Shown: positions 1-34,620, numbered from the stretch's first letter. The stretch is 34,620 nt of DNA from a virus (IMGVR_UViG_2529293040_000020), one strand, 5' to 3'. Numbers and translations are program-made. The notes: generated by a model not told the origin, from the letters alone.

Positions 1-387
1 TCAATGGGTGGTTTCCCAGACGGGAAACCAGGTATGCAGCCATTCGGGTTTTTCTTTGTGAGTTGTAGCTGCAATATCTCCATTTTTCAGTCGCGTGTCC
101 TGTATTTTCAGATATCGATCAACCCATGCCTTTAATCTGATACCCCGACGTTTTGTTGCTGACGGACTTTCATCAATTTTGCGCATGAAATATTCAGCTT
201 CTGCTGCAGCTATTCGCTGATTGGCTGTGGAAGCGATTTTTTCTGCCTTACCTTTGTCTGTTCCGAGTCCGTGAAATTTTCCAGTCACAGGATTTTTATA
301 CTGGTAGTAAACTCTGCCAGTTCTGCGATCAAACTTTTCGTAAAGACCGGCTACGTCAGTGCTGTTTTTTCGTGGCCTCGGTGACAT
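1..387 (-). CDS. int: Lambda-family integrase, N-terminal (arm-binding) part only; ORF stops at window edge, rest of integrase appears to continue in another frame outside the window
   Basis: Translation MSPRPRKNSTDVAGLYEKFDRRTGRVYYQYKNPVTGKFHGLGTDKG... matches the N-terminal pattern of lambda Int (LY..NGYY.YRDPRTGK.FGLG.D); stop codon at 1-3; position at prophage end next to xis. Confidence 0.6.
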   Translation of the reverse strand: MSPRPRKNSTDVAGLYEKFDRRTGRVYYQYKNPVTGKFHGLGTDKGKAEKIASTANQRIAAAEAEYFMRKIDESPSATKRRGIRLKAWVDRYLKIQDTRLKNGDIAATTHKEKPEWLHTWFPVWETTH

Positions 388-634
388 GAGTTAAAATCTC
401 CTTCAGTGCATCATCATCGCCAGTATGAATTTCCGGCGCAATTCCCGTTTCACCAGGCCCAACAAATACTGCTCGGCGATCTATCAGCCAACGCCCACGA
501 ATTTTTTGTGGTCTTGGAACGATGTATCCTAGTTTTCCGTATTTCACCAGGGTAGTGTTTGTTATTGGGAGACTGAACCGTTTTGGTTTCCACTCGTCGA
601 GCGTTATCAGGTACTGTTCGCTCATGGCTATCAC
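356..634 (-). CDS. xis: Excisionase (lambda Xis-like)
   Basis: Motif YLITLDEW...GKLGYIVPRPQKIRGRWLIDRRAV resembles lambda Xis (YLTLQEW...REYLFHESAV); overlaps int start as in lambda. Confidence 0.6.
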   Translation of the reverse strand: MIAMSEQYLITLDEWKPKRFSLPITNTTLVKYGKLGYIVPRPQKIRGRWLIDRRAVFVGPGETGIAPEIHTGDDDALKEILTHVTEATKKQH

Positions 635-686
635 TCCGGAACGCGCCAGTTGCAGAATATCAACGACAACTGGCGACGGTTGAACA

Positions 687-2276
687 TTAAAAATCAGCCT
701 GATTCGGGATCAGTTTTTGCCAGATAGCTGAAACGTATTTTGCCTGGTGACGAGCGTCATCAAGTGCATTATGGCGCTCACCTTCGAATGGAATAGCCGT
801 TCTGGCATCGAAGTCTATGGCTTTCCCCAGCTCAACGATTGTGCGTACATCGCGATCGTTGTAGTAACGCCACGGGCAGGGGATCCCCTGCCGTTCGTAT
901 GAACGGCGCAAAATCGTGTTGTCGAAGTTGGCTCCATTTCCCCAAACCTGAACAAAAAATTCACCGGAGTTTTCGTCGATAAATTCCCGCAATTGTAACA
1001 GTGCATCATCTAACGGGATTTCATCGGTCATAATGGCAGATTGCGCTTCGCGTGATTGCTTAAGCCACCATTTAATGGTGTCCCGATCAATGACTCCGCC
1101 AGCAGTTTCCAGATCGATAGTCTTACTAAATTCCGGTCCCATATCTCCGGTTTGCGGATCGAAAAATATTGCACCTATTGAGATGATCGGGGCATCAGGA
1201 TTTTTTCCCATGGTTTCAAGGTCGATCATTAGATGGTCACACGTCCTGCTGGTGGATGTGATTTCGTGATGACCGTTCACCTTAATTGAGTGATCTGCCG
1301 TCTCGCCAGTCTCATTATCGCTATTGTGATGCTGATTGCCGCCAGTGTTCTCCTTGTGTGGATGCTCAGCGCCTTCCATTTCCTCCGGATCATCTTCCTG
1401 AACTTCAACCTGATACTCTTCATCGAATGTTTCCTGGTATGTTGCGTCGCCCATCACCGCACCACAATCAGGGCAGTTGCCGCCGCCGGTCTGACCGCAG
1501 GCGGTGCAGACTTTTTCCACTTCCTGTTGCACTACTGGTTCAGGTAGTTTCGTTTCTGGCTCGTTTTGTTGCGTATTTGGGCTGTTTTGTTCCGCTTTCT
1601 GGTCGTTCTGTTCCGTTTCTTGCTGGTTCTGGTTCACAGAATCGCGGGTTTCAATCCCCTTCACCCATTTCGGATCATTCGGATCGCTAACCCCTGCAAC
1701 AAATTCACCACGTGATACTGCAAGCAGTTCATCGGCGTCAGGCTGGCTGATATTGGCTGCCTGCATAATTTTGTTTACTTCGTCAGCGGTAACTTTTACC
1801 GGCCCTGGTTGTGCGGTCGTGTCAGATGCACCAGTATTTTGTTGTGAACCTGAGTATGTACCGTTTTTGCGGGCGAAATATTCTTCTTTCGTGATTTCAG
1901 TAGCCCCTGTAGCCAGTGCCTTATCCAGACCAGAAAGTTTGTTTGCGCGACCGTATTTTTCGCTATCCTTGTCGGTGAAGAGGAAGTAGAACGGCCCTTC
2001 ACGCTCTACAGATGGTTCGACTTCCACTTTGCATTCGGTTTTTTCGTTGTCCGGAATTGCCGTTTCCACTGCATCAGTTTCTGGTACTGGCGACGAGAGA
2101 GTATCAGTTGCGCTCTGATTTCTTCCTTCATCTTCAAACACGCCCTTTGTAGTCAGGTATTCAGTAATGTATTTGTTCAGTGCCACAGGGTCTTTGTGAA
2201 TGTCGATCGGACGTTCACGGACAAGGCCAAAAATAGTCTGGCGGTCGTAGCGAAGGGCATCAGGCTGTTTGCGCAT
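687..2276 (-). CDS. C-terminal part of a large recombination-module protein with DnaQ-like (DEDDh) 3'-5' exonuclease domain, Q/E-rich linker and CxxC...CxxC zinc ribbon
   Basis: Exonuclease motifs seen in translation: MIDLETMG (Exo I), WGNGANFDN (Exo II), HNALDDARHQAKY (Exo III); zinc ribbon CTACGQTGGGNCPDCG; reads on from the upstream ORF after a -1 shift at a T6/A6 run (2325-2330). Confidence 0.6.
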   Translation of the reverse strand: MRKQPDALRYDRQTIFGLVRERPIDIHKDPVALNKYITEYLTTKGVFEDEGRNQSATDTLSSPVPETDAVETAIPDNEKTECKVEVEPSVEREGPFYFLFTDKDSEKYGRANKLSGLDKALATGATEITKEEYFARKNGTYSGSQQNTGASDTTAQPGPVKVTADEVNKIMQAANISQPDADELLAVSRGEFVAGVSDPNDPKWVKGIETRDSVNQNQQETEQNDQKAEQNSPNTQQNEPETKLPEPVVQQEVEKVCTACGQTGGGNCPDCGAVMGDATYQETFDEEYQVEVQEDDPEEMEGAEHPHKENTGGNQHHNSDNETGETADHSIKVNGHHEITSTSRTCDHLMIDLETMGKNPDAPIISIGAIFFDPQTGDMGPEFSKTIDLETAGGVIDRDTIKWWLKQSREAQSAIMTDEIPLDDALLQLREFIDENSGEFFVQVWGNGANFDNTILRRSYERQGIPCPWRYYNDRDVRTIVELGKAIDFDARTAIPFEGERHNALDDARHQAKYVSAIWQKLIPNQADF

Positions 2277-3157
2277 TGATGCCGAGATACGCTTCCAGTC
2301 TTCGCGGTCGTTGTCGATAACTTCTTTTTTGCCCAGCGATGGATGCTGCCGTCAATGTTTCCGGCATCCACATCACCAGGCCAGAGAGCGTAGGCCAGTT
2401 CGTCATCCAGTGTTTTCCATGTCTGCTTGTATTCGCGATGAGTGGCAGCAATGACCGGGCTGATTTTTCCTGTTGAATTTTCAGTGTTCTGTTGATTGGC
2501 TCTGGCGCGGGCGAGATCAACAACAGACGTGTATTTTCCGGTTTCCTTGCGTTCACCTTCGCGACGTTTTTTCCAGATGCGCATCTCTGCCTGAATTTCG
2601 GGCCATTTGGCACCAGGCTTACATTTATGCTTAACCCACCCGATGGCATGCAGCTTAAGCTCCGGATACATGGCGTTAACTTCTGGCATTTTCATCAACG
2701 CTTCAACGATATGTCCGTCGAATGTTGCCATGTCTTCCTGCAACAATTCCTGTGCGCTAATCACCATATCAACGGTGATGTTTTCACATGTGTCGAACTT
2801 AACCATGACAGCGTTCTGTACTTCAGGGGCCAGCTTGTCAAAAGTGACGTTCATCGGATCGGATTCAGTCTCAACCGGGACAAAAGAAGCAGAATCCTCA
2901 TCCCAGCGGTTTTCCTGCATATATTCAGCATCCCATGAATCGAGGGCAGGGCGGGGTATGCCAGGTTTATCCTCGCAGACAATAAATTTATAAGCGCAGT
3001 CCTGAGCAGCCGGATAATGTTCCAGGAATTGCCAGTGAAATTTTGCTCGAGCACGGCGTTCGTCGCCAGCTTCAATGGCTGTGGCTACAGCCACAGCGCC
3101 TTCTTCCCTTGTTGCCAGTTCGTCAGGAATAGCGGCGCAAATAAAGACTTTACTCAT
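2177..3157 (-). CDS. N-terminal part of the same large exonuclease-domain protein (frame-shifted relative to 687-2276)
   Basis: ORF with GAGG RBS 9 nt upstream of ATG at 3157 (MSKVFICAAIPDEL...); last ~35 codons are low-complexity junk while the alternative frame reads as protein (LGKKEVIDNDREDWKRISASMRKQPDALRY...). Confidence 0.5.
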   Translation of the reverse strand: MSKVFICAAIPDELATREEGAVAVATAIEAGDERRARAKFHWQFLEHYPAAQDCAYKFIVCEDKPGIPRPALDSWDAEYMQENRWDEDSASFVPVETESDPMNVTFDKLAPEVQNAVMVKFDTCENITVDMVISAQELLQEDMATFDGHIVEALMKMPEVNAMYPELKLHAIGWVKHKCKPGAKWPEIQAEMRIWKKRREGERKETGKYTSVVDLARARANQQNTENSTGKISPVIAATHREYKQTWKTLDDELAYALWPGDVDAGNIDGSIHRWAKKKLSTTTAKTGSVSRHQCANSLMPFATTARLFLALSVNVRSTFTKTLWH

Positions 3158-4413: not shown

Positions 4414-4443
4414 ACTGATTCCTCGCGGTGCTGTTTCGCTTAT

Positions 4444-4821
4444 CAGCCGTTAGATTTTGCCGAACTGGAAAGTGCCTGTTTAAATTCGCTGAAGCTGAGA
4501 GCTTCTTCGCCTTCGGCAAGACCTTCGAAGTATTCTTCGTAAGCCTTTTCCATGATTGTGTCGAAATCCATATCACCCACCTGAATTTCTTTCCAGCCAG
4601 CGACGCGCTCCAGATTCGGTTTTAAACGTTTTGCTTTTGGTATACGTCATCGCGGTGAACGTACCGTCCTGGTTGGGGAACACGCCACATACCAGAGATT
4701 CGCTGTTGCCAAGATCGATAGTATCCATGTTGACCTCATTTCCCCTTAACGCCGGGGTAGCGGAACTGTTTGCTGAGAACACCGTGCGGTGTCTTGATGG
4801 ATCGTAATTTAGTTTTCTCAT
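4444..4821 (-). CDS. Hypothetical early-operon protein, apparently frame-shifted within an A/T-rich run (about 4620-4640)
   Basis: N-terminal frame MRKLNYDPSRHR...MDTIDLGNSESLV... stops at 4573; downstream frame continues as acidic protein-like sequence ...MDFDTIMEKAYEEYFEGLAEGEEALSFSEFKQALSSSAKSNG. Confidence 0.4.
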
Positions 4822-7665: not shown

Positions 7666-7940
7666 ATGGAGACTGTTTTTGACGCACTGAAAGCAATGGG
7701 AAAAGCCACATCCATAGAACTTGCTGCGCGCGTGAAGAAGTGCTGAACGAACTATGGGAACTGAAAAAGGCTGGTTTTGTTGATAAAAGCGCGTACACCT
7801 GGCGTGTGGCTGATAACAACGTTCAGCAGGAACAGCCAGCGCAGGCAGAACTGCCGGAAGAAACCACCACAATGAGTGAAGTTATGCAGCGCATACTGGC
7901 ATTTTATCAGGGAAATGTTCGATATTTTAGACGTTACTAG
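7666..7940 (+). pseudogene. Small winged-helix-like protein gene split by a 1-nt frameshift at about 7738-7746
   Basis: [26 protein letters not shown] then -1 frame [27 protein letters not shown]...; restoring one G gives a continuous ...[19 protein letters not shown]... domain; GGAGG RBS before 7666. Confidence 0.4.
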
Positions 7941-8379: not shown

Positions 8380-9226
8380 ATGAGGAAAAAATCGTTTGGA
8401 CGTTGCCCGTTTGATTTCGACGAAGATGTAAAAAAAATAGCCGCGATAAATAAATATATCCATGCGAAATTTGAGAGGCATAAAAATAAAATAGATAACC
8501 TAAAGGGGGTGGAACAAAAATTGATGGTTTTACATTACTTTAATGTACTGAATGAACTTAGTAATCAGGCTATATTTTCTTTGAGTACCGGAGCCTTTTC
8601 AGCATCGGAAGTATTAACTAGAGTTATAATGGAACAGGCTGCCAATCAATTTTATATAGCAATTGATGATGGAAAAAATGCACAAGCATTACTCAAGGGT
8701 AGTAAGAAATTAGTTCATAGTAATGGGAAACGGTGGCTGGAGTGTTTAAAATCCAAAGAAATGACTAATCCAGCAGCAGATGAAAGGATTCGTATCGGAA
8801 AAGAGCTAACTGATATGTTTAATAGATTGTGGCCAAATACACCTGAATATCCTGGAACCAAAAAGCTTTTCGAAGTAATTGGCTGGGAAACACACTATCA
8901 TGCCTATTACGTCCCTCTTTGTGATTCAATACATACATTCTCTGATGATATGGCAAATATAGTATCTCTATATAATGCAATCCAAAGCGATAAAACTACT
9001 GCTATCGAACTCACTCTTAGCAGTTAAACAAGAAAATAAACGGCTGGCAATTTATAATGTCGTAATTGCTATTGGCCTGCGGTGTGAGGCCTTAGTAAAT
9101 GTATTTAACTCTTTAGGTTATCGAGATATTATAACTGAAATGGCGCCAACAATAGATGCAGTCAACCAGATTATAATTCGATATGATGATTTCGAACATT
9201 CCAGAATTTTTATTGTCAATAATTAA
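8380..9226 (+). CDS. Unknown AT-rich island protein, read as 215-aa and 83-aa pieces that probably form one protein of about 280 aa (frame change between 8975 and 9027)
   Basis: Strong RBS (AGGAGG) before ATG 8380; second piece has no own RBS and starts inside the first; low GC compared with phage genes. Confidence 0.4.
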
Positions 9227-9279
9227 TTGGCAGAATTCGTACATGCACAACAACTAGTTATAGTTGACCTATTTCGCTC

Positions 9280-10260: not shown

Positions 10261-11633
10261 ATGAAAAGACTATATTATACCCATCATGATAGTCGAACCT
10301 TAAAACTTGCTATAGAAGGTGATGTTTCTGATAATGCGAATATTTTTACAGTAATTGTAGGTAAAAATGGCGTTGGAAAAAGCAGATTGTTATCTCAGAT
10401 TGCTAAAGACTGTATTCAAGATATTCATTTCTTGAAAACTTTTAATCCATTATTTGACAGAGAAATAACACCAAAGTTAATTGCCGTATCTACCAGCCCA
10501 TTCGATAAATTCCCTCCAGGGCGTAGGTCATTAAATCACCAAAGGAAAGAAAATAATTATCGCTATGTGGGTATGCGTGGAGAAGGCCCCTTCGGCGTAT
10601 CAAATGCCGTATCCCTTTTATCTTCAGCAGCGAGAGGTTGGCTAGAGAAACTTGCTTATTCAGAAAATCCTGCAAATTTACTCGATGTTTTTCATTCTAT
10701 TGATTTTGAGCCCCATATAGAGTTTGTATTTAAACCAACTTACAACGGACCGGACACTCCTGACTATAACTTCATTGGTGTATATTCAGATGAGATATTA
10801 ACGGAAGTTAAGGAGTTATATTTAAAATACAATATAAAAATTGACAGGAAGAATATTGAGAGTCTCTTAAAGTTAAACTCCGAATCACGTCATGATATTT
10901 ACGAAGCACTGGTTGAAATTAATCGATTTGAACCTGAACGTAGGGCTGTAACCTTGTCAGTCGATTTTACCAATGGTGAAACATTGGTTGGCTCGACTTA
11001 TGCGAATAATTATTTTTCTAGATCAATTCTTAAACTTATGAACGCTGGCTTCATGAGATTGATGGATATGCGACTCATAAAAAAAGCTATGGTCCCATGT
11101 CACTTAAACGTGCGAGCTCGGGAGAACAATGTTTATTAGTGATGTTGCTTGGAATTGCAGGGCATATAACTGATGGTTCTATAATACTAATTGATGAACC
11201 GGAAATAAGCTTGCATCCTCGATGGCAGGAAGAGTTTATCATTATGTTAACAAAAGCATTTTTAACTTACTCAGGTTGTCAATTCATAATTGCAACTCAT
11301 TCACCACAAATAATATCCAATTTGCCGAATAAAGGTTGTTATATAACATCTTTGTCGAAAAGTTATCTTTATAAAGCAAAATACTTTAGCAACCGGTCTG
11401 CAGACTATCAACTTGCGGAACTATTTGATGCCCCTGGCATTATGAATGAATACATTGCCAGATTAGCTTTCAATTTACTTTCAAAAGTTAAGACTGCTAA
11501 GTTAGTAACAGATGATAATTGGCGTGAATTAAAACAACTCCAGCTTCTCCTTGAAAACGTTAATAGTAATGACCCTATTAATGAACTCGTAAATTCCGTA
11601 TCTCAGGTGTGTGAAATTTATGCCAAAAATTAA
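10261..11633 (+). CDS. ABC/AAA15-type ATPase (Septu PtuA-like candidate), read in two frames with the shift at or near an A7 run (11079-11085)
   Basis: Walker A VIVGKNGVGKS in 10261-11139; ABC signature SSGEQ, Walker B IILIDEPE and H-loop IATHSP in 11097-11633; frames are open in parallel between about 11034 and 11139. Confidence 0.7.
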
Positions 11634-12509: not shown

Positions 12510-13595
12510 TCATGCTAGACACATGTAGGTTAGCCTCTTACGTGCCGGAAGGCAAGGAGATGTATGGGTCCACCACATATTGCAATTTTTATTCTCTTTT
12601 AAAATATATTCCACGGGCGTCATTAGTGCGAGCGCCTTGTGGGGCTTTTGCTGTTATACAGCACCAGATATTCCGCCAGCTTCTGGTTAAATAGCGCCAG
12701 ATCTTCAAAGAGTAAAATCTCATTAAATTCAATAAACTGCTCTCTTAACGTCCGGTTAAAACGTTCACAGATAGCGTTCATTTTGGCGTGTAGGGATAGG
12801 TCCAGAGGTGTTTGATAGCGGCTTCCTGCAGCGTTTTGTCGAAGTTTCCCAGGAACTCTTTTCCGCTATCTGTGATTATCTGGCTGATACCGACCGGGAA
12901 CAACCGGGCTGCGCGGCTGAAGAAGTGATTGACGATATCACTGTTGAGTGACGGCACAGCCAGCGCCAGCGCGTAATTGCTGCATTCGTCGATCATGGTG
13001 ATGACATAGCGACGCAGTTCGCCCATTCTGAGCTCAATGGCGTCCATCCCAATGAGCTCACCTGTCTTTACCGGGCGGTAGTGCTTTGGCCTGCGGGGTT
13101 TGGCAGACCGCTTTTTGACAAGCAGTGCCTTCCCCCGCGATCCCAGACGCACAGGTATCATCCGCATTTTATCATGTGCGGCAGCGATCATTCTGCCGAT
13201 GGTGGAAACACTCGGACAGGCCAGATAGCGCTGTTCGCACCAGGGCTTCAGGCGAACAAAAATCTGCTCTTTACCGAGGTTCGGCAGCTCTGTCCTGAGG
13301 CGTCGAATCTCTTTCAGCACATCGGGATGCCAGTGTTTTTTCGTCGCACCAGAGGTGCCTTACTGTGCGGGATTAGCCCCTCAGGTCCTTCCTTGTTCAG
13401 TAACTGACGCCACCAGTAAAGCGTGCGGCAGGACACGCCAAAGGCTTCAGAAGCTGCAGAAATACCGTGTTTATCCCAGAAGTGCAGAGCCTTCATTCTC
13501 ATTGTTGCTATATCAGCCATCACTGAAAGCCTCAACGCATAATCGGCCGTTTGGTAGTACTTAGGATAGCCAACCATCAGATGCTGCATTTGCAT
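12510..13595 (-). mobile_element. IS481-like DDE (rve) transposase gene with at least three frame disruptions; IS ends not defined
   Basis: N-terminal HTH (ALHFWDKHGISAASEAFGVSCRTLYWWRQLL), DDE core (KHYRPVKTGELIGMDAIE...ITDSGKEF...MNAICERFNRTLREQ), C-terminus PHKALALMTPVEYILKENK; shifts at T6 13336-13341, near 12785 and near 12600. Confidence 0.5.
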
Positions 13596-14038: not shown

Positions 14039-14275
14039 ATGATGAACATCGAAGAACTGCGTAAAATTTTTTGTGAAGATGGCCTCTATGCTGTGTGCGT
14101 TGAAAATGGAAATCTTGTTAGTCATTACCGCATTATGTGTTTGCGAAAGAATGGGGCTGCGTTAATTAATTTTGTGGATGGTCGAGTGACAGACGGATTT
14201 ATCTTGCGCGAAGGTGAGTTTGTCACTTCATTACAGGCACTGAAAGAGATCGGAATAAAAGCAGGCTTTTCGTAA
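14039..14275 (+). CDS. Hypothetical small protein whose last codons are replaced by the IS66 insertion
   Basis: ORF MMNIEELRKIFCEDGLYAVCVENG...; stop codon is supplied by the IS left end; without the IS the frame would read ...KAGFSAFAEE*. Confidence 0.4.
   Translation: MMNIEELRKIFCEDGLYAVCVENGNLVSHYRIMCLRKNGAALINFVDGRVTDGFILREGEFVTSLQALKEIGIKAGFS
14264..14271. repeat. Left copy of the 8-bp target site duplication GGCTTTTC of the IS66-family element
   Basis: Identical 8-mer directly abuts both ends of the element. Confidence 0.75.
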
Positions 14276-14324
14276 CCGGCTCATTTAAACCGTCTGGTCT
14301 GTTTCCTCCGGCTCTACAAAAATA

Positions 14325-15001
14325 ATGTCCATCATTTTTAATGGACACTATCGTATGAAACACCGGACCTGGATCACTGAAGCTTTACGTCTTCACTTTG
14401 AAGAACATTTACCCCGGGTTGTGGCCGGGCGTCGCCTGGGTGTACCAAAATCAACAGTTTGTAGTATGTTCGTGCGCTTTCGGAGAGCTGGCCTTTCGTG
14501 GCCTTTGCCCGCAGGCATGTCGGAGCAGGAACTTGATGCCTGCCTTTACGGACAATTTTCCACGGTACCAGTCGTACGTCCTGAAAGCACCGTTATATCC
14601 GAAGCCCCCGTGGTAAAAAAACGTCCCCGGCGGCCCAACTTCCCTTATGAGTTTAAAATCGCCTTAGTGGAGCAGTCACTGCAGCCCGGAGCCTGTGTGG
14701 CGCAGATCGCCCGGGAAAACGGAATCAACGATAACCTGCTCTTCAACTGGCGCCATCAATACCGGAAAGGTGGCCTGCTGCCTTCCGGAAAAATATGCCG
14801 GCACTGCTTCCCGTGACGTTAACGCCGGAGCCGGATAATAAAATCCCGGCCCCCGCACAGGAACCAGAGCAGATAAATACACCGTCCGACAGTCTGTGTT
14901 GTGAGCTGGTTCTGCCGGCCGGAACTCTCAGGCTTAAAGGTAAACTGACGCCGGCGTTATTACAGACACTTATCCGCGAAATAAAAGGGAGCAGCCACTG
15001 A
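14325..15001 (+). CDS. tnpA: IS66 accessory protein TnpA (HTH), read in two frames with the change near 14795-14816
   Basis: KRPRRPNFPYEFKIALVEQSLQPGACVAQIARENGINDNLLFNWRHQYRKG (transposase_8-type HTH) then other frame PALLPVTLTPEP...; A7 run at 14613-14619. Confidence 0.5.
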
Positions 15002-15348
15002 TGATATCTCTCCCTGCAGGTTCGCGTATCTGGCTGGTTGCAGGTATCACCGATATGCGAAATGGCTTTAACGGCCTGGCATCAAAAGTTCAGAACGTCC
15101 TGAAGGATGACCCGTTCTCCGGACACCTGTTCATCTTCCGCGGACGCCGGGGTGACCAGATAAAAGTGTTGTGGGCTGACAGTGACGGACTGTGCCTCTT
15201 CACCAAACGCCTGGAGCGGGGCCGCTTCGTCTGGCCAGTCACCCGTGACGGCAAGGTGCACCTTACTCCGGCTCAGTTATCCATGCTTCTTGAAGGTATC
15301 AACTGGAAGCACCCGAAACGAACGGAACGCGCTGGAATCCGCATATAA
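15001..15348 (+). CDS. tnpB: IS66 Orf2-like protein TnpB
   Basis: MISLPAGSRIWLVAGITDMRNGFNGLASKVQNVLKDDPFSGHLFIFRGRRGDQIKVLWADSDGLCLFTKRLERGRFVWP is the characteristic IS66 TnpB sequence. Confidence 0.85.
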   Translation: MISLPAGSRIWLVAGITDMRNGFNGLASKVQNVLKDDPFSGHLFIFRGRRGDQIKVLWADSDGLCLFTKRLERGRFVWPVTRDGKVHLTPAQLSMLLEGINWKHPKRTERAGIRI

Positions 15349-15367
15349 CCCGTTGTAAAGTGAGGAT

Positions 15368-16939
15368 ATGGACACCTCACTTGCTCATGAGAACGCCCGC
15401 CTGCGGGCACTGTTGCAGACGCAACAGGACACCATCCGCCAGATGGCTGAATACAACCGCCTGCTCTCACAGCGGGTGGCGGCTTATGCTTCCGAAATCA
15501 ACCGGCTGAAGGCGCTGGTTGCGAAACTGCAACGTATGCAGTTCGGTAAAAGCTCAGAAAAACTTCGTGCAAAAACCGAACGGCAGATACAGGAAGCACA
15601 GGAGCGAATCAGCGCACTTCAGGAAGAAATGGCGGAAACGCTGGGTGAGCAATATGACCCGGTACTGCCATCCGCCCTGCGCCAGTCTTCAGCCCGTAAA
15701 CCGTTACCGGCCTCACTTCCCCGTGAAACCCGGGTTATCCGGCCGGAAGAGGAATGCTGTCCTGCCTGTGGTGGTGAACTCAGTTCTCTGGGATGTGATG
15801 TGTCAGAGCAACTGGAGCTTATCAGCAGCGCCTTTAAGGTTATCGAAACACAACGTCCGAAACAGGCCTGTTGCCGGTGCGACCATATCGTGCAGGCACC
15901 AGTACCTTCAAAACCCATTGCACGCAGTTATGCCGGAGCGGGGCTTCTGGCCCATGTTGTCACCGGGAAATATGCAGACCATCTGCCGTTATACCGCCAG
16001 TCAGAAATATACCGTCGTCAGGGCGTGGAGCTGAGCCGTGCCACACTGGGGCGCTGGACAGGTGCTGTTGCTGAACTGCTGGAGCCGCTGTATGACGTCC
16101 TGCGCCAGTATGTGCTGATGCCCGGTAAAGTCCATGCTGATGATATCCCCGTCCCGGTCCAGGAGCCGGGCAGCGGTAAAACCCGGACAGCCCGGCTGTG
16201 GGTCTACGTCCGTGATGACCGTAACGCCGGTTCACAGATGCCCCCGGAGGTCTGGTTCGCGTACAGTCCGGACCGGAAAGGTATCCATCCACAAAATCAC
16301 CTGGCCGGTTACAGCGGTGTGCTTCAGGCCGATGCTTACGGTGGTTACCGGGCGTTATACGAATCCGGCAGAATAACGGAAGCCGCGTGTATGGCTCATG
16401 CCCGGAGAAAAATCCACGATGTGCATGCAAGAGCGCCCACCTACATCACCACGGAAGCCCTGCAGCGTATCGGTGAACTGTATGCCATCGAGGCAGAGGT
16501 CCGGTGCTGTTCAGCAGAACAGCGTCTGGCGGCAAGAAAAGCCAGAGCCGCGCCACTGATGCAGTCACTGTATGACTGGATACAGCAACAGATGAAAACA
16601 CTGTCGCGTCACTCAGATACGGCAAAAGCGTTCGCATACCTGCTGAAACAGTGGGATGCACTGAACGTGTACTGCAGTAATGGCTGGGTGGAAATCGACA
16701 ACAACATCGCAGAGAACGCCTTACGGGGAGTGGCCGTAGGCCGGAAAAACTGGATGTTCGCGGGTTCCGACAGCGGTGGTGAACATGCGGCGGTGTTGTA
16801 CTCGCTGATCGGCACATGCCGTCTGAACAATGTGGAGCCAGAAAAGTGGCTGCGTTACGTCATTGAACATATCCAGGACTGGCCGGCAAACCGGGTACGC
16901 GATCTGTTGCCCTGGAAAGTTGATCTGAGCTCTCAGTAA
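15368..16939 (+). CDS. tnpC: IS66-family transposase TnpC
   Basis: 523 aa; N-terminal coiled coil, zinc finger CPACGGEL...CRCDH, DDE region typical of IS66 TnpC. Confidence 0.85.
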
Positions 16940-16969
16940 ATATCAATACGGTTCTGACGAGTCGCTTAC

Positions 16970-18767: not shown

Positions 18768-19264
18768 TCGTAAATATGATATATCCGGAAATTACAGGCA
18801 AAAGCGGCGAGCATTTACGTCTAAAAACGCTGGAAGCCGTCTGGATCCAGGGGAAATTACGGATGTGGGGGCGTTGGTCGTATATAGGTGGTGGCAAACC
18901 AGGAAATATGTTCAATCAGTTGCTGGCATCCAAAAAACTGACAAAAACCGCGGTCAATGAAGCCCTGCGTAGAATCAGGGAGTCAGGGATTGATAAACCA
19001 GAGCTGGAAGCATTCTTGCGAGAGATGATCGCTGGCAGACAGAAGAGCTGGTTGTCTCACTGTACTGATGCAGAGGCGTTACGCATTGATGGGGTGATAA
19101 GTAAAGCGCTTGCACGTTATCCTGGATTGATTGATATCCTGCGGCAAAGGTACGAAGGGCGGGGGATGAGTAAACGCAAAATGGCTGAATTGTTGAATGA
19201 GGTTCACCCTGAGTGGTGCTATGCAATGCCGCAATCGTATAGATATGTGGCTGAGAATAGCTGA
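18764..19264 (+). CDS. Late-gene antiterminator, Q-like (assigned mainly by position)
   Basis: 166-aa ORF between rusA and the terminator/late region; start overlaps rusA stop. Confidence 0.45.
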   Translation: MIVNMIYPEITGKSGEHLRLKTLEAVWIQGKLRMWGRWSYIGGGKPGNMFNQLLASKKLTKTAVNEALRRIRESGIDKPELEAFLREMIAGRQKSWLSHCTDAEALRIDGVISKALARYPGLIDILRQRYEGRGMSKRKMAELLNEVHPEWCYAMPQSYRYVAENS

Positions 19265-19482
19265 GTTTATTCTGTATCCACTGATGCGAGATGCATTTTC
19301 TTTTACTGACGCTTAGAATCTGGAGGGCGTTTGTTGTTGCACGAAGAGGATTTTTGGCTGGTAGTAAGGTTTGTGCAGTTTTAGAAAAAAGCTTGTATTT
19401 TTAGCCATAAACTGTTTCAATCCAGCTACGCTTCGCAAAGCTGTACCGCGAGGCGAATAGCAGACATGGACACCTGAAAGAA

Positions 19483-19504
19483 CCCGCTTTATGCGGGTTT
19501 TTTT
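19483..19504 (+). terminator. Rho-independent terminator downstream of the Q-like gene (tR'-like position)
   Basis: cccgc-tttat-gcggg followed by T7. Confidence 0.5.
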
Positions 19505-24703: not shown

Positions 24704-24957
24704 TAAAACGGGTAGATGTACTTCACATGATACTTATACTTGGCAGTACATTTTCTGACAGACAGTGACGGATGTTGTCAAGATATTGTGTCATTTATAA
24801 CCTGAATCAGGGGTTGGCCGGAATGTTATCTGGCATTTTTAGCAGAGCCTGAATGCCATAATCACGGCTCCCGGCGTTGGCCGTCAGTGGGTGACACTGG
24901 CGGCTTTTTGTTTTCTTACTTTCATTTTCTGTCGGCGGTGACGGAGACATACATCAG

Positions 24958-27444: not shown

Positions 27445-27954
27445 TTATTTTATCAGAAGTTAATTATCACTCTGTTGCTATTCAGTACATCCCTGCAGGG
27501 TAAAGTCTTGTTTCGCCGGATATGAAGATGAAATATTGTTAGAAGACAGTAGCTACCGGTTCCTGTAACCGAACGTTCATTTCTCGTTATTTTTCATGCT
27601 GGCCGGGCGCAGGTGCTTTGCATCTGTTGCCAGCCTTCTCCTGCAGGCTTCAATAACCCATGCCGAAAAATTACCCGATCCCTTACGTTCAAGGGCAATA
27701 TGGATTTGATTAATCATCTGGTTTGGGAAGCTTTATTTTTTGATGACATTGTGTTTTTCCGTGTTCAGTGCTGCTGATTTGTATTGTCTTAAGATGTCTT
27801 TACGTTAAGTTGACACAGATCAATTAATGCATGACTTGGACAAAATTGATTATTTGTCGTGGTTTTATGGTGTACGTGGGATGTGTGATGGTATTTATAT
27901 AAATGATAATTATTATCATTTATTGGGTCCTTTCCGGCGATCCGGCAGGCTACG

Positions 27955-27966
27955 GGGCGGCGACCT
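27955..27966 (+). other. cos: cos site: cosN cohesive-end sequence GGGCGGCGACCT with lambda-like flanking sequence
   Basis: ggggcggcgacctcgcgggttttcgctatttatgaaaattttt matches the left end of the lambda genome as recalled. Confidence 0.7.
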
Positions 27967-28135
27967 CGCGGGTTTTCGCTATTTATGAAAATTTTTAGGG
28001 AAAAATCAGATCCGTTCTTCTTCTTTTTAACTGTTTGATTATCAATAGAATTTTAAAAATATAAAAGGATCTGACAAAGGCTGTTTTTGTTAGAAAACGC
28101 CATTTTCAGATCCTTTCTGGTTCCCGGGGGAGTGT

Positions 28136-28684
28136 ATGAACGTCAATAAGAAAAAACTGGCCGATATTTTTGGCGTTGATGTCAGGACCATCACCGCCTG
28201 GCAGAGTCAGGGGTTACCACTAGTTTCTGGTGGAGGGAAAGGGACTGAATCAGTTTTTGATACAACTGCTGCCATTCAGTGGTATGCGCAGAGGGAAGCT
28301 GATATTGAAAACGAAAAACTCCGTAAAGAGATCGAGGATTTGAGGGCTGCCAGCGAATCAGACCTTCAGCCCGGCACCATTGATTACGAACGTTACCGAC
28401 TGACGAAGGCACAGGCCGATGCACAGGAGCTGAAAAATGCTCGTGAGGAAGGCCTTGTCCTCGAGACGGAGTTATTTACCTACATCTTTCAGCGAGTGGC
28501 ACAGAATATATCAGGGATCCTTGTCCGTGTCCCTCAGACACTGCAGCGTAAATACCCTGATATATCACCCGCACATCTTGATGCTGTGAAAACTGAAATC
28601 GCGAAAGCATCCGATGTGGCTTCTGAAGCCGGTGAGAATGTGCGCAGGTGGATTGATGATTTCAGACGAACTGAGGGCGGCTAA
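28136..28684 (+). CDS. nu1: Terminase small subunit Nu1
   Basis: [36 protein letters not shown]...[46 protein letters not shown] closely matches lambda Nu1. Confidence 0.9.
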
Positions 28685-30583
28685 TTCTGCAGGAGCGATA
28701 GCAACCGGCCTCCTTGCGCTAAAAATTCCTGTCCCTCTGACGACAGTTCAGTGGGCAGATCGACATTATTACCTTCCGAAAGAGTCATCTTACACCCCGG
28801 GGCGGTGGGAAACACTGCCGTTTCAGGTTGCCATCATGAACAGCATGGGGAATGACCGGATCCGCACTGTTAATCTGATTAAATCTGCCCGTGTTGGTTA
28901 TACAAAGATGTTGCTGGGAGTGGAGGCTTATTTTATTGAGCATAAATCACGCAACAGCCTTCTTTTCCAGCCCACGGATTCTGCTGCTGAAGATTTTATG
29001 AAATCTCATGTGGAACCCACGATCAGGGATGTGCCGGTTTTACTCGATCTTGCACCGTGGTTTGGGCGTAAACATCGTGATAATACCCTCACGCTGAAAC
29101 GCTTTTCATCGGGCGTCGGTTTCTGGTGCCTGGGCGGCGCTGCCGCCAAAAACTACCGTGAAAAATCCGTGGACGTGGTCTGCTATGACGAACTTTCCTC
29201 GTTCGAGCCGGATGTCGAAAAAGAGGGCTCGCCAACCCTGCTGGGGGATAAGCGTATTGAGGGGTCGGTGTGGCCAAAATCCATTCGCGGCTCGACGCCT
29301 AAAATCAAAGGCACCTGCCAGATCGAAAAAGCGGCCAACGAGTCGGCGCATTTCATGCGTTTTTATGTGCCCTGCCCGCACTGTGGGGAGGCGCAGTATC
29401 TGAAATTTGGCGATGAGTCCACGCCTTTTGGGCTTAAATGGGAGAAGGACAGTCCCGAAAGCGTTTTCTACCTCTGTGAACATCATGGCTGCGTGATCCA
29501 TCAGTCTGAGCTTGACCAGAACAACGGGCGGTGGATCTGTGAAAACACGGGCATGTGGACCCGTGACGGTCTGACGTTTTTCAGCGCCCGGGGTGATGAA
29601 ATTCCGCCGCCGCGCTCCATCACGTTCCATATCTGGACGGCGTACAGTCCGTTCACCACCTGGGTACAGATTGTCTATGACTGGCTGGATGCACTGAAAG
29701 ATCCCAACGGCCTGAAAACCTTTGTGAACACCACGCTGGGCGAGACCTGGGAAGAGGCCGTGGGCGAAAAACTCGATCACCAGGTACTGATGGATAAGGT
29801 GGTGCGTTACACGGCGGCGGTGCCTGCCCGGGTGGTTTATCTGACGGCGGGCATTGACTCGCAGCGAAACCGTTTTGAGATGTATGTCTGGGGATGGGCT
29901 CCGGGAGAGGAAGCTTTTCTGGTGGATAAAATCATCATTATGGGGCGTCCTGATGAGGAAGAGACGCTGTTACGTGTGGATGCGGCGATCAACAAAAAAT
30001 ACCGCCATGCAGACGGAACCGAAATGACCATTTCCCGTGTCTGCTGGGACACCGGGGGATCGATGGTGAAATTGTTTATCAGAGATCAAAAAAACACGGT
30101 GTTTTCCGGGTGCTGCCGGTAAAAGGCGCATCTGTCTATGGCAAGCCGGTGATCACCATGCCAAAAACCCGCAATCAGCGGGGCGTGTATCTGTGTGAAG
30201 TGGGAACGGACACCGCAAAAGAAATTCTCTATGCCCGTATGAAAGCCGATCCCTCGCCTGCGGATGAAGCCACGTCGTATGCCATCCGTTTTCCTGATGA
30301 TCCGGAGATTTTTTCGCAGACAGAGGCGCAGCAACTGGTGGCGGAAGAGCTGGTGGAGAAGTGGGAAAAAGGAAAGATGCGTCTGCTGTGGGATAACAAA
30401 AAGCGGCGTAACGAAGCGCTGGACTGCCTGGTGTATGCCTACGCGGCATTACGTGTGTCCGTGCAACGCTGGCAGCTTGATCTGGCTGTACTGGCAAAAT
30501 CCCGGGAAGAAGAGACGACCCGGCCAACCCTGAAAGAACTGGCAGCGAAGCTGTCCGGAGGAGTGAATGGTTACAGTCGCTGA
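28656..30583 (+). CDS. A: Terminase large subunit A, interrupted by a frameshift at a G5 run (30054-30058)
   Basis: Lambda gpA-like throughout; frame 1 ends ...[11 protein letters not shown]...*, the -1 frame continues [30 protein letters not shown]... as in lambda gpA. Confidence 0.85.
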
Positions 30584-30773
30584 ACTGCAGGCGCTGCGTC
30601 AGGCGCGCCTTGATTTATTAACCGGTAAACGGGTGGTGTCTGTCCAGAAAGATGGTCGCAGAATTGAATATACGGCGGCTTCTCTGGATGAGCTTAACCG
30701 GGCGATCAATGATGCGGAGTCGGTACTGGGGACAACCCGGCGTCGCCGTCGTCCGCTGGGAGTGAGGTTATGA
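30567..30773 (+). CDS. W: Head-tail joining protein W
   Basis: LQALRQARLDLLTGKRVVSVQKDGRRIEYTAASLDEL resembles lambda gpW. Confidence 0.8.
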   Translation: MVTVAELQALRQARLDLLTGKRVVSVQKDGRRIEYTAASLDELNRAINDAESVLGTTRRRRRPLGVRL

Positions 30774-32363
30774 AACGAACGCCTGTCCTGATTGATGTGA
30801 ACGGCGTTCCGCTTCGGGATAGCCTCAGCTACAACGGGGGCGGTGCAGGATTTGGCGGGCAAATGGCGGAGTGGTTGCCACCGGCGCAGAGTGCCGATGC
30901 GGCCCTGCTGCCCGCGTTGCGTCTGGGGAATGCCCGGGCAGATGATCTGGTGCGCAATAACGGAATAGCGGCCAATGCGGTGGCCCTGCATAAGTATCAC
31001 ATTGTCGGGCATATGTTTCTTATCAGCTACCGTCCGAACTGGCGCTGGCTGGGGATGCGGGAGACCGCAGCAAAAAGCTTTGTCGATGAGGTGGAGGCGG
31101 CCTGGTCGGAATACGCCGAAGGGATGTCTGGCGAGATCGACGTGGAAGGAAAACGCACGTTCACGGAATTTTATCCGTGAAGGTGTGGGCGTTCATGCGT
31201 TTAACGGCGAAATCTTTGTGCAGCCGGTCTGGGATACGGAAACCACGCAGTTATTCCGTACGCGTTTTAAAGCCGTGAGTCCGAAACGGGTGGACACGCC
31301 AGGACACGGTATGGGGAACCGTTTTCTGCGGGCCGGGGTGGAGGTCGATCGATATGGCCGTGCCGTTGCGTACCATATCTGTGAGGATGATCTTCCGTTC
31401 TCCGGGAGTGGACGATGGGAACGGATCCCGCGTGAACTTCCCACCGGGCGTCCGGCCATGCTGCATATTTTCGAGCCGGTGGAGGACGGGCAGACCCGTG
31501 GGGCCAACCAGTTTTACAGCGTCATGGAACGGCTGAAGATGCTCGATTCCCTGCAGGCAACACAGCTTCAGTCGGCCATTGTGAAAGCCATGTATGCAGC
31601 GACGATTGAAAGTGACCTTGATACCGAAAAGGCCTTTGAATATATCGCCGGTGCGCCGCAGGGGCAGAAGGATAATCCGCTTATTAATATTCTGGAGAAG
31701 TTCTCCAGCTGGTATGACACGAATAACGTGACGCTGGGTGGTGTCAAAATTCCGCACCTTTTCCCCGGGGATGATCTGAAACTACAGACTGCGCAGGATT
31801 CAGACAATGGATTTTCGGCGCTTGAACAGGCGCTGCTGCGGTATATCGCCGCCGGTCTTGGCGTTTCCTACGAACAGTTGTCCCGTGATTACTCGAAGGT
31901 CAGTTATTCAAGTGCCAGGGCCTCTGCCAATGAGTCGTGGCGCTATTTTATGGGGCGGCGAAAATTTATTGCGGCCCGGCTGGCCACGCAGATGTTTTCC
32001 TGCTGGCTGGAAGAGGCACTTCTTCGGGGGATTATCCGTCCGCCACGGGCGCGTTTTGATTTTTATCAGGCGCGATCAGCCTGGTCACGGGCAGAGTGGA
32101 TTGGTGCCGGAAGAATGGCCATTGACGGGCTCAAGGAGGTTCAGGAATCGGTGATGCGCATTGAGGCCGGACTGAGCACGTATGAGAAAGAGCTGGCGCT
32201 GATGGGCGAGGATTATCAGGACATTTTCCGCCAGCAGGTCAGGGAATCTGCTGAGCGACAAAAAGCCGGACTCTCACGTCCGGTGTGGATAGCGCAGGCG
32301 TATGAGCAGCAGATAGCGGAGAGTCGCAGGCCGGAAGAGGAGACAACACCCCGTGAGACGTAA
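30770..32363 (+). CDS. B: Portal protein B, interrupted by a frameshift at a T4 run (31169-31172)
   Basis: Lambda gpB-like; frame 1 ends ...KRTFTEFYP*, the other frame continues IREGVGVHAFNGEIFVQPVWD... matching lambda ...KRTFTMMIREGVAMHAFNGELFVQ. Confidence 0.85.
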
Positions 32364-33858: not shown

Positions 33859-33894
33859 AGCCAGTGCTGACCATCAACAGGAGGTTTTTACAAT

Positions 33895-34242
33895 ATGGTG
33901 ACGAAAACTATCACTGAACAGCGTGCGGAAGTACGTATTTTTGCCGGTAATGATCCGGCTCATACCGCCACAGGCAGCAGCGGGATTTCCTCGGCAACAC
34001 CGGCACTGACGCCACTGATGCTGGATGAGGCCACCGGGAAACTGGTGGTCTGGGACGGACAAAAAGCCGGTAGTGCGGTTGGCATACTGGTACTGCCGCT
34101 TGAAGGCACAGAGACGGCGCTGACCTATTACAAGTCGGGGACCTTTGCGACGGAGGCAATCCGCTGGCCTGAAAGTGTGGATGAACACAAAAAGGCCAAC
34201 GCCTTTGCCGGCAGTGCCCTGAGTCACGCGGCGCTGCCGTAA
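33895..34242 (+). CDS. D: Head decoration protein D
   Basis: NDPAHTATGSSGISSATPALTPLMLDEATGKLVVWDG...YYKSGTF resembles lambda gpD. Confidence 0.85.
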   Translation: MVTKTITEQRAEVRIFAGNDPAHTATGSSGISSATPALTPLMLDEATGKLVVWDGQKAGSAVGILVLPLEGTETALTYYKSGTFATEAIRWPESVDEHKKANAFAGSALSHAALP

Positions 34243-34299
34243 CACGTTATCAGGCCACCGCGGTGGCCTGACTGATTTCTGAATGAAAGGAACTGATTT

Positions 34300-34620
34300 A
34301 TGGGATTGTTTACGACCCGCCAGTTACTCGGTTATACCGAACAAAAAGTGAAATTTCGTGCGCTGTTTCTGGAGCTGTTTTTCCGCCGTACGGTGAATTT
34401 CCATACCGAAGAGGTGATGCTGGACAAAATTACCGGAAAAACGCCGGTGGCGGCCTATGTCTCCCCGGTTGTTGAAGGAAAAGTGCTGCGTCATCGTGGT
34501 GGTGAAACCCGCGTGTTACGTCCGGGCTACGTCAAGCCGAAACACGAATTTAATTACCAGCAGGCGGTTGAGCGTCTTCCCGGTGAAGATCCGGCTCAAC
34601 TGAACGACCCGGCCTACCGT
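34300..34620 (+). CDS. E: Major capsid protein E, 5' part (runs off the window end)
   Basis: MGLFTTRQLLGYTEQKVKFRALFLELFFRR...PGYVKPKHEFNYQQAVERLPGEDPAQLNDPAYR resembles lambda gpE N-terminus; AAGGA RBS. Confidence 0.85.
   Translation, partial: MGLFTTRQLLGYTEQKVKFRALFLELFFRRTVNFHTEEVMLDKITGKTPVAAYVSPVVEGKVLRHRGGETRVLRPGYVKPKHEFNYQQAVERLPGEDPAQLNDPAYR

What the first reader, a model, noticed from the sequence alone, without database searches (positions are those of the whole stretch)
1..34620. Recurrent homopolymer-associated frame disruptions across unrelated genes
Seen: the integrase N-terminal ORF stops at the window edge; the exonuclease shifts at T6 2325-2330; the 4444-4821 gene and the 7666-7940 gene are each split over two frames; the ATPase shifts near A7 11079-11085; the IS481-like transposase shifts at T6 13336-13341 and elsewhere; IS66 tnpA shifts near 14795-14816; terminase A shifts at G5 30054-30058; portal B shifts at T4 31169-31172. 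Inference: either the prophage is a decayed cryptic element, or the assembly carries homopolymer indel errors as some long-read platforms produce. The second reading would mean the defence cassette and the morphogenesis genes are actually intact.
Basis: partly seen in the sequence, partly recalled or inferred. Interest (0 to 1): 0.55.

Follow-up and report, generated by a model that had tools for sequence, protein, structure and literature searches.

The report
Mostly sequencing-error frameshifts in draft prophage
Most of the broken genes in this E. coli prophage are single-base homopolymer miscalls peculiar to one 2012 draft assembly (strain DEC2A), and only a few lesions (integrase frameshift, a 2-bp deletion in a Q-like regulator, IS insertions, old pseudogenes) are real, so the finding is ordinary.

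Summary
The window is the last 34.6 kb of contig AIFA01000040.1 of E. coli DEC2A (GCA_000249155.2). It is a lambdoid prophage next to potC, 99.6-99.9% identical to the Sanger-sequenced E2348/69 prophage. Two are not: 4444-4821 is ydfB+ydfA, and 7666-7940 is an old pseudogene identical in E2348/69. I compared about 40 independent loci. Five indels are lineage-wide and real, including integrase T6>5 and DUF1133 delAC. Eleven are private to the DEC2A assembly: exonuclease, DUF5677 x2, IS481 x2, terL, portal and four intergenic. Three recur sporadically at long runs: ptuA A8>7, IS481 T7>6 and ISCro1 tnpA A6>5. DEC2A has 8 private indels against 1 private substitution in 18 kb. The contraction rate rises with run length (1%, 10%, 33% and 50% for 5- to 8-mers). 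The same kind of contraction splits the essential gene lolC in the chromosomal flank, while the otherwise identical DEC2B assembly has lolC intact. Reverting 14 indels restores every affected gene. Verdict: mainly an assembly artefact, probably from flow-based sequencing rather than long reads, laid over a prophage that is genuinely defective.

The parts
49..53 (-). T5 run (T6 in E2348/69) that frameshifts the integrase. The N-terminal 128-aa ORF (387->1) stops at bases 1-3. REAL, inherited.
   Evidence: Window allele in all 8 lineage contigs L014-L021 (DEC2B, GCA_974496765.1, six Logan read sets). E2348/69, L009 and L011 have T6.
2325..2330 (-). T6 run that splits the 823-aa exonuclease into 326 + 529 aa. 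Lineage sister L015 has T7. Private to DEC2A, probable artefact.
   Evidence: The 326-aa product occurs on the DEC2A contig only. L015 has T7 with the same linked SNP, and its exonuclease is intact at 823 aa.
9019..9211 (+). DUF5677 gene (8380-9222): +A at 9019 (not in a homopolymer) and T6>T5 at 9207-9211. Together they put 187 nt out of frame. Private to DEC2A, probable artefact.
   Evidence: All sisters (L015, L022-L025, L027, L028, L030) and L003 carry the reference allele. The truncated product is absent from the 15-billion-protein collection, and the intact 280-aa protein is on >500 contigs.
11079..11085 (+). A7 run (A8 elsewhere) that splits Septu ptuA (10261-11633) into 292 + 178 aa. 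Sporadic allele, status unresolved.
   Evidence: A7 occurs in DEC2A, DEC2B (L031), CP148282.1 and three Logan contigs. A8 occurs in 8 sisters and in 18 of 19 complete genomes.
12510..13595 (-). IS481-family transposase gene with three 1-bp deletions: delT at 12644/5, T5>4 at 12781-12784, T7>6 at 13336-13341. The first two are private to DEC2A. The third recurs in two other sister drafts.
   Evidence: The gene is intact at 362 aa in E2348/69 and in L022, L024 and L027-L031.
14272..16969 (+). ISCro1-type IS66-family element (tnpA, tnpB, transposase) inserted in rem, with an 8-bp target duplication GGCTTTTC (14264-14271 and 16970-16977). A real insertion, absent from the sister assemblies.
14789..14793 (+). 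A5 run (A6 in intact copies) that splits IS66 tnpA (225 aa) into 163 + 68 aa. Status unresolved.
   Evidence: L042 has an intact copy. L043 (CP031923 plasmid) has the same A5 allele, annotated 'frameshifted'. The 163-aa product is on 5 contigs against >950 for the intact TnpA.
19222..19229 (+). 2-bp (AC) deletion in the DUF1133 Q-like late regulator, giving 162 aa instead of 180. REAL, lineage-wide.
   Evidence: Window allele in all ten loci L022-L031, including an NCTC genome and strain 2362-75. The 162-aa product is on 20+ contigs.
19385..19390 (.). Intergenic A7>A6, private to DEC2A, probable artefact.
19498..19504 (.). Intergenic T7 (T8 in E2348/69). Lineage-wide, a real difference.
24905..24917 (.). 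Three adjacent T-runs, each one base short (T6>5, T5>4, T3>2), upstream of the holin gene. Private to DEC2A, probable artefact cluster.
   Evidence: L022, L024, L028, L031, L033 and L039 all carry the longer runs.
27919..28028 (.). Intergenic T4>3 (27919-27921) and a C that interrupts a T7 run (28023). Lineage-wide, real differences from E2348/69.
30054..30058 (+). G5 run (G6 elsewhere) that truncates terL (28656-30583) at aa 488 of 642. Private to DEC2A, probable artefact.
   Evidence: G6 in E2348/69 and in all of L032-L041. Sisters L022, L024 and L027 have a 642-aa terL.
31169..31172 (+). T4 run (T3 elsewhere) that truncates portal (30770-32363) at aa 136 of 530. Private to DEC2A, probable artefact.
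   Evidence: The 136-aa product occurs on the DEC2A contig only. T3 in E2348/69 and in L032-L041.
4443..4728 (-). ydfB (4443-4571) and ydfA (4573-4728): two separate small genes, not one split gene.
   Evidence: Identical to the annotated E2348/69 genes.
7666..7868 (+). DUF1627 pseudogene remnant. Old, genuine decay shared with the Sanger reference.
   Evidence: Identical sequence, annotated 'frameshifted; incomplete' in NC_011601.1.

Best explanation
The window comes from the draft assembly of E. coli DEC2A. Two layers of lesions lie on top of each other. Layer 1 (artefact) is about eleven single-base indels, mostly one-base contractions of runs of >=5, that exist only in this assembly's consensus. 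They falsely split the exonuclease, DUF5677, IS481 transposase, terL and portal genes. They are base-calling or consensus errors of the kind made by flow-based (pyrosequencing-type) chemistry, whose run-length estimates get worse as the run gets longer. Layer 2 (real) is a prophage that is truly defective. It has an inherited integrase frameshift (T6>5), a 2-bp deletion in the Q-like DUF1133 regulator, IS481 and ISCro1 insertions, and older pseudogenes shared with E2348/69. Three sites at long runs (ptuA A8>7, IS481 T7>6, tnpA A6>5) cannot be assigned to either layer without reads. Shown here: allele distributions, private indel/SNP loads, length dependence, and the lolC control. Inferred: the error mechanism and the platform.
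For: Source identified: L002 equals window 261-21139 at 100%, and protein names say DEC2A. Eleven indels are private to DEC2A, while 8-10 sister assemblies of the same prophage and E2348/69 carry the intact allele. In ~18 kb DEC2A has 8 private indels against 1 private substitution. The real divergence of E2348/69 over the same region is 13 substitutions to 4 indel events, and sisters 2362-75, AIEV01 and DEC2C have 0 private indels. DEC2A and DEC2B differ over 10,001 bp of flank by 0 substitutions and 2 homopolymer indels, one private to each. DEC2A's is a T7>6 that truncates essential LolC at about residue 265 of 399, while DEC2B, E2348/69 and others have the 399-aa protein. The per-run contraction rate rises with length: 1.3%, 10%, 33% and 50% for 5-, 6-, 7- and 8-mers. 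The flank rate (1/11 runs of >=6) is indistinguishable from the prophage rate (8/51), Fisher p=1. Three neighbouring T-runs within 13 bp are each one base short. Other drafts of the same series carry their own private homopolymer indels. Reverting 14 indels restores all six genes to full length. Real layer: the integrase T5 allele is in all 8 lineage contigs, including six read-set assemblies and a divergent chromosomal background. DUF1133 delAC is in all ten sisters.
Against: No reads or quality values were available, so no single site is proven to be an error. Two private indels (+A at 9019, delT at 12644/5) and the portal T3>4 expansion are not classic long-homopolymer undercalls. The platform is not documented here for DEC2A. 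The ptuA A7 allele also occurs in DEC2B, in one complete genome and in a clean contig from run ERR181302 that is 100% identical to the window. The tnpA A5 allele occurs in a finished plasmid. So at least some long-run variants may be genuine. The housekeeping control is small (9.3 kb, one event).
Confidence: 0.85

Rival explanations
1. All the frameshifts are genuine. The DEC2A prophage is a heavily pseudogenised cryptic element that built up slippage mutations after it was immobilised.
For: The prophage does carry real lesions (integrase, DUF1133, IS insertions, old pseudogenes). Polymerase slippage also favours long runs (established knowledge). A frameshifted integrase would relax selection on the rest of the element.
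Against: Sisters that share the integrase frameshift, and are nearly identical in sequence, have intact exonuclease, DUF5677, IS481, terL and portal genes. 8 private indels against 1 private substitution is the reverse of the real ratio seen for E2348/69 (4:13). The same lesion type hits essential lolC outside the prophage. Three contractions fall within 13 bp.
Confidence: 0.04
2. DEC2A is, or was, a mismatch-repair-deficient mutator, so the private homopolymer indels are real and genome-wide.
For: MMR loss raises 1-bp indels in homopolymers with steep length dependence (established knowledge), which matches. Indels occur both inside and outside the prophage.
Against: MMR-deficient lines accumulate many transitions as well (established knowledge), but DEC2A has 1 private substitution in 18 kb and 0 in 10 kb against DEC2B. 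A frameshift that truncates essential LolC should not survive. Other drafts of the series show the same kind of private indels at lower load, which points to the method and not the strain.
Confidence: 0.03
3. The three sporadic long-run variants (ptuA A8>7, IS481 T7>6, ISCro1 tnpA A6>5) are genuine alleles, real slippage mutants segregating in natural populations, even though the private sites are artefacts.
For: ptuA A7 is shared by DEC2A and DEC2B, by a clean contig (ERR181302) 100% identical to the window, and by CP148282.1 on a 98%-identical background. tnpA A5 is in a finished plasmid, annotated 'frameshifted'. The IS481 93-aa product is on 14 contigs, including a complete genome.
Against: These are exactly the longest runs, where DEC2A's error rate is 10-50%. 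Within the lineage their distribution is patchy and not clade-like. 18 of 19 complete genomes have A8. Two of the three Logan A7 contigs carry other short-run indels, so they are error-prone themselves. Truncated products are about 1% of the contigs that carry these genes.
Confidence: 0.35
4. The splits in the IS genes reflect programmed ribosomal frameshifting or transcriptional slippage used by the transposases.
For: Some IS families (IS1, IS3) make their transposase by programmed -1 frameshifting at A-rich slippery runs (established knowledge; review PMC5009743 listed).
Against: Intact copies encode single-frame products: 362 aa for IS481 in E2348/69 and seven sisters, and 225 aa for TnpA on >950 contigs. 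The window alleles are deletions relative to those copies. IS481 has three separate deletions.
Confidence: 0.01

Closest known systems
Homopolymer-length miscalls in flow-based (454/Ion Torrent-type) or uncorrected nanopore draft assemblies, which produce artefactual frameshifts
   Same: One-base changes concentrated in runs of >=5, with a rate that rises steeply with run length. They are sporadic and private to single assemblies, they hit essential genes, and indels far outnumber SNPs. Scholz et al. 2016 (PMC4746626) use the same criterion: clade-consistent tract lengths are real, sporadic outliers are likely errors.
   Different: The platform is not verified for DEC2A. Two indels are outside homopolymers and one is an expansion of a 3-mer. 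Five homopolymer-associated differences from E2348/69 are genuine lineage alleles.
Lambdoid prophage next to potC in EPEC O127:H6 E2348/69 (NC_011601.1, ~1,268,129-1,307,000)
   Same: 99.6-99.9% identity over about 30 kb with the same gene order: int-xis-exo-dicB-ydfABC-cI/cro-ydaT-DnaT-like-P-DUF5677-ptuAB-IS481-hokD-rem-DUF968-rusA-DUF1133-methylase-tRNAs-iraM-SASA esterase-lysis-terS/terL-W-portal.
   Different: DEC2A has an ISCro1 insertion in rem. It lacks the ISEc13 + IS200C insertion of E2348/69, and it keeps the head genes (S49 protease, gpD-like) that E2348/69 has deleted. In E2348/69 the integrase and DUF1133 genes are intact.
Septu type I defence system (PtuA ATPase + PtuB HNH nuclease)
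   Same: The intact reference proteins match PADLOC PtuA (E=1.9e-165, full length) and PtuB (E=1.1e-83), and the genes are adjacent and overlapping.
   Different: In the window ptuA is split at an A7 run. Whether that is real is unresolved. Function was not tested.
ISCro1 (IS66 family)
   Same: 99.9% identical over 2,698 bp to annotated ISCro1 copies, with tnpA-tnpB-transposase and an 8-bp target duplication.
   Different: tnpA carries A5 instead of A6, a frameshift also seen in a minority of other copies.

Membership tests
Sequencing/assembly homopolymer artefact | The variant is private to one assembly, while near-identical independent assemblies of the same locus carry the reference-length run | tested here: met
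   Met for 11 of 19 indels. Not met for 5 lineage-wide indels. Patchy for 3.
Sequencing/assembly homopolymer artefact | Error probability rises with homopolymer length, and contractions predominate | tested here: met
   1.3%, 10%, 33% and 50% for 5- to 8-mers. 11 run contractions, 1 run expansion and 2 non-homopolymer indels among the 14.
Sequencing/assembly homopolymer artefact | The same lesions occur in essential or housekeeping genes at a similar rate | tested here: met
   lolC T7>6 truncates LolC at about aa 265 of 399. DEC2B, identical at every other flank position, is intact. 1/11 against 8/51 runs of >=6, Fisher p=1. The sample is small (9.3 kb).
Sequencing/assembly homopolymer artefact | Indels greatly outnumber substitutions among private differences | tested here: met
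   DEC2A has 8 indels to 1 substitution. Real E2348/69 divergence is 4 to 13.
Sequencing/assembly homopolymer artefact | Raw reads or quality values contradict, or only weakly support, the consensus at the sites | not testable with these tools
   No read data are accessible.
Sequencing/assembly homopolymer artefact | The assembly was produced on a platform with known homopolymer errors | tested here: inconclusive
   The Hazen et al. 2012 announcement (PMC3370608) is not held. The same centre used 454 Titanium + Celera for contemporaneous E. coli drafts (PMC3491183).
Genuine prophage pseudogenisation | The disrupting allele is shared by independent assemblies or technologies in a pattern consistent with descent | tested here: met
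   Met for integrase T5 (8/8 lineage contigs), DUF1133 delAC (10/10), and the ydfD, DUF1627 and tyrosine-recombinase pseudogenes shared with Sanger E2348/69. Not met for exonuclease, DUF5677, terL and portal.
Phase-variable contingency locus (ptuA A-tract) | Tract length varies repeatedly among independent high-accuracy genomes or within populations | tested here: inconclusive
   A7 in 1 of 19 complete genomes, 2 sister drafts and 3 Logan contigs, two of which are error-prone.
Septu type I | Adjacent PtuA (AAA_15/21 ATPase) and PtuB (HNH) genes | tested here: met
   PADLOC hits at 1.9e-165 and 1.1e-83 on the intact reference proteins. The genes overlap by 14 nt.
IS66 family (ISCro1) | tnpA-tnpB-DDE transposase, terminal inverted repeats, 8-bp target duplication | tested here: met
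   The ends GTAACCGGCTC.../GTAAGCGACTC... are imperfect inverted repeats, and the TSD is GGCTTTTC.

The most novel reading that the evidence does not exclude
The A8 tract inside Septu ptuA could be a genuine slippage-prone switch, so that A7 'off' variants (DEC2A, DEC2B, ERR181302, CP148282.1) would reflect recurrent, possibly selected inactivation of a prophage-borne defence system and not sequencing error.
Probability: 0.1. Interest if true: 0.4.

Novelty: not a real feature. Interest (0 to 1): 0.08.

Why it matters
The main value is as a caution. Taken at face value, the window suggests a prophage with dead packaging genes and a dead Septu system. Any pseudogene census, defence-system inventory or prophage-completeness call made on this draft, and to a lesser degree on its sister DEC drafts, will over-count frameshifts. 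No new biology is implied.

Tried and rejected
(1) I first treated the three deletions at 24905-24915 as alignment noise at the ISEc13/IS200C junction of E2348/69. Comparison with sisters that lack that insertion showed they are real DEC2A-private contractions. (2) I first read the exonuclease lesion as loss of an A outside the homopolymer. Lineage sister L015 shows the ancestral state was T7, so it is a run contraction. (3) I first took the five contigs carrying the exact 292-aa PtuA fragment as proof that the A7 allele is real. I downgraded this after finding that two Logan contigs carry other short-run indels, that only 1 of 19 complete genomes has A7, and that its distribution among sisters is patchy. 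(4) Exact k-mer matching missed some loci because of linked SNPs, so I used local alignments instead. (5) I could not read Hazen et al. 2012 by DOI or PMC id, so the platform remains inferred. (6) Two paper searches for the published name of this E2348/69 prophage failed on term syntax and a third gave nothing useful, so I dropped it. (7) The terL N-fragment and DUF5677 N-fragment look-ups found nothing because the DEC2A annotation did not call them. I used sister gene calls and alignments instead. (8) I considered programmed frameshifting in the IS genes and rejected it because intact single-frame copies dominate. (9) In the reverted sequence I placed the tnpA A insertion a few bases upstream of the A-run (the true run is 14789-14793). 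This shifts the 5-mer and 6-mer run counts by one and does not change any conclusion.

Full report
IDENTITY OF THE WINDOW. Megablast against complete E. coli genomes shows the window is a lambdoid prophage 99.6-99.9% identical to the one next to potC in EPEC O127:H6 E2348/69 (NC_011601.1), but with length differences. In the Sanger-based reference the exonuclease, AAA ATPase, HNH, IS481 transposase, terL and portal genes are all annotated intact. ydfD, a DUF1627 fragment and a tyrosine recombinase are annotated pseudogenes. An exact-sequence look-up of the truncated ATPase product returned a locus (L002) that equals window 261-21139 at 100% on contig AIFA01000040.1 (127,036 bp) of GCA_000249155.2. 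Protein names identify the strain as E. coli DEC2A. The window is the last 34.6 kb of that contig.

CHECK OF THE OBSERVATION. A base-level alignment to E2348/69 lists every difference, and mapping the reference CDSs onto the window shows which genes are broken. Coordinates were verified directly.
- Seven of the nine sites are confirmed as true frame disruptions. The integrase has a T5 run at 49-53, and its 128-aa ORF ends at bases 1-3. The exonuclease has T6 at 2325-2330. The ATPase has A7 at 11079-11085. The IS481 transposase has T6 at 13336-13341 plus two more deletions. IS66 tnpA has its real lesion at A5 14789-14793. terL has G5 at 30054-30058. Portal has T4 at 31169-31172.
- Two sites are not confirmed. 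'4444-4821' is the separate genes ydfB and ydfA. '7666-7940' is a DUF1627 remnant. Both are identical to the reference.

POLARISING EACH INDEL. Exact look-ups of the truncated products and retrieval of contigs carrying them gave about 40 loci. These include the same prophage in ten sister assemblies (the DEC1/DEC2 series, strain 2362-75, an NCTC genome) and several read-set assemblies. An allele matrix and local alignments divide the 19 indel events into three classes.
- Lineage-wide, therefore real (5 events): integrase T6>5, present in all eight lineage contigs including one on a chromosomal background only 95% identical; DUF1133 delAC; intergenic T8>7, T4>3 and +C.
- Private to the DEC2A assembly (11 events): exonuclease T7>6 (sister L015 has T7 and an intact 823-aa gene); DUF5677 +A and T6>5; IS481 delT and T5>4; intergenic A7>6; three adjacent T-runs at 24905-24917, each one base short; terL G6>5; portal T3>4. 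The last two are absent from E2348/69 and from ten further loci, and the sisters call a 642-aa terL.
- Sporadic at the longest runs (3 events): ptuA A8>7 (DEC2A, DEC2B, CP148282.1, three Logan contigs); IS481 T7>6 (DEC2A and two other drafts); tnpA A6>5 (a minority of copies elsewhere, one annotated 'frameshifted' in a finished plasmid).

WHY THE PRIVATE CLASS IS ARTEFACT. (i) Against the NCTC genome over ~18-20 kb, DEC2A has 8 private indels and 1 private substitution. The truly diverged E2348/69 has 13 substitutions and 4 indel events. Three sisters have no private indels, and the others have 1-3, each at different sites. (ii) The 14 private or sporadic events are concentrated in homopolymers (P ~1e-12). 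The per-run rate climbs from 1.3% for 5-mers through 10% and 33% to 50% for 8-mers, and nearly all are contractions. (iii) There is an internal control. The chromosomal flank of the same contig (L007) differs from DEC2B over 10,001 bp by zero substitutions and two homopolymer indels, one private to each draft. DEC2A's is a T7>6 that truncates the essential lipoprotein-release permease LolC at about residue 265 of 399, while DEC2B, E2348/69 and other genomes encode 399 aa. LolC essentiality is established knowledge. The flank rate (1 of 11 runs of >=6) matches the prophage rate (8 of 51), Fisher p=1. This is what uniform assembly error predicts, and it is not what prophage-specific decay predicts. 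(iv) Three contractions within 13 bp are hard to explain as independent mutations. (v) Reverting the 14 indels restores the exonuclease, DUF5677 (280 aa), PtuA (457), IS481 transposase (362), terL and portal (530). Intact versions of these proteins are on tens to hundreds of contigs, while the truncated exonuclease and portal products occur only on the DEC2A contig.

PLATFORM. The genome announcement (Hazen et al. 2012, PMC3370608) is not held. A contemporaneous paper from the same centre used 454 Titanium 3-kb paired-end libraries with the Celera assembler (PMC3491183). The error profile fits flow-based sequencing, but this step is inference.

WHAT IS REALLY DEFECTIVE. Even after correction the element is not a competent prophage. 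The integrase is truly frameshifted and the Q-like DUF1133 protein lacks its C-terminus. rem is split by ISCro1, and an IS481 element sits between ptuB and hokD, as in E2348/69. Several early-region genes are old pseudogenes. Compared with E2348/69, DEC2A keeps head genes (S49 protease, gpD-like) that the reference has lost, and it lacks the reference's ISEc13/IS200C insertion.

UNRESOLVED SITES. ptuA A7 is the most interesting. The cassette is a clear Septu type I pair (PtuA 1.9e-165, PtuB 1.1e-83). A7 appears in DEC2A and DEC2B and in a clean contig from run ERR181302 that is 100% identical to the window. But 18 of 19 complete genomes and eight sisters have A8, and two of the three Logan A7 contigs carry other short-run indels. 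I put about 35% on these three long-run variants being genuine alleles and about 10% on a biologically meaningful tract switch.

COMPARISON WITH WHAT IS KNOWN. Sporadic, assembly-private homopolymer length changes set against clade-consistent ones is the established way to separate artefact from real tract variation (Scholz et al. 2016, PMC4746626). Nothing here departs from known behaviour of draft assemblies, lambdoid prophage decay, Septu or IS66 elements.

VERDICT. The recurrent pattern is not a biological feature, and interest is low.

Noticed in passing
window 8380-12255: A moron-like block lies between the replication genes and IS481. It contains DUF5677, a degenerate tyrosine recombinase (9328-9848) and a clear Septu type I pair, PtuA (10261-11633) and PtuB (11620-12255). 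PADLOC gives no hit for DUF5677.
   Followed up: partly
window 14264-16977: The ISCro1 (IS66-family) insertion in rem has a perfect 8-bp target duplication, GGCTTTTC. It is absent from all ten sister assemblies, including DEC2B, which has 0 SNPs against DEC2A in the 10-kb flank. This looks like a very recent transposition in DEC2A.
   Followed up: partly
window 21075-21324: Two prophage tRNAs. ARAGORN calls the first tRNA-Met (CAT), but RefSeq annotates the identical E2348/69 gene as tRNA-Ile, presumably a lysidine-modified ileX-type tRNA. The second is tRNA-Arg (TCT).
   Followed up: no
window 34620 (contig end): The window ends within one or two bases of the contig end, just after the gpD-like gene and near the start of the major capsid gene. 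The assembly probably breaks at sequence repeated among several lambdoid prophages.
   Followed up: no
L016 (DEC2B), L023 (AFJB01), L027 (AIEZ01), L028 (AIFD01), L031 (DEC2B): Sister drafts carry their own private homopolymer indels. Examples are an A-run in xis in DEC2B and an extra T that splits ptuA into 147+356 aa in AFJB01. The problem affects the whole series, with DEC2A worst in this region.
   Followed up: partly
L014 (GCA_974496765.1, CDDKRK010000007.1): Another assembly in which housekeeping genes are called as split (potD 142+184 aa, lolD 105+129 aa), which suggests it is also error-prone. It still shares the integrase T5 allele.
   Followed up: no
L001 24214-26478 and 34140-34380 (E2348/69): E2348/69 has an ISEc13 + IS200C insertion upstream of the holin gene and a deletion that fuses the S49 protease remnant to an NlpC/P60 tail gene. 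DEC2A lacks both, so its prophage is structurally more complete than the reference copy.
   Followed up: partly
L003 (CP148282.1) and window 11079-11085: The only complete genome with the ptuA A7 allele is CP148282.1 (dog isolate Z1323PEC0010), on a prophage background only 98% identical to the window. Its sequencing platform is unknown, so A7 there could be an independent real slippage or an independent error.
   Followed up: partly
window 2052, 3242, 4081 vs L015 (SRR094159): There are three substitutions between the window and the otherwise identical read-set assembly L015. I did not determine whether these are strain differences or consensus errors in DEC2A.
   Followed up: no
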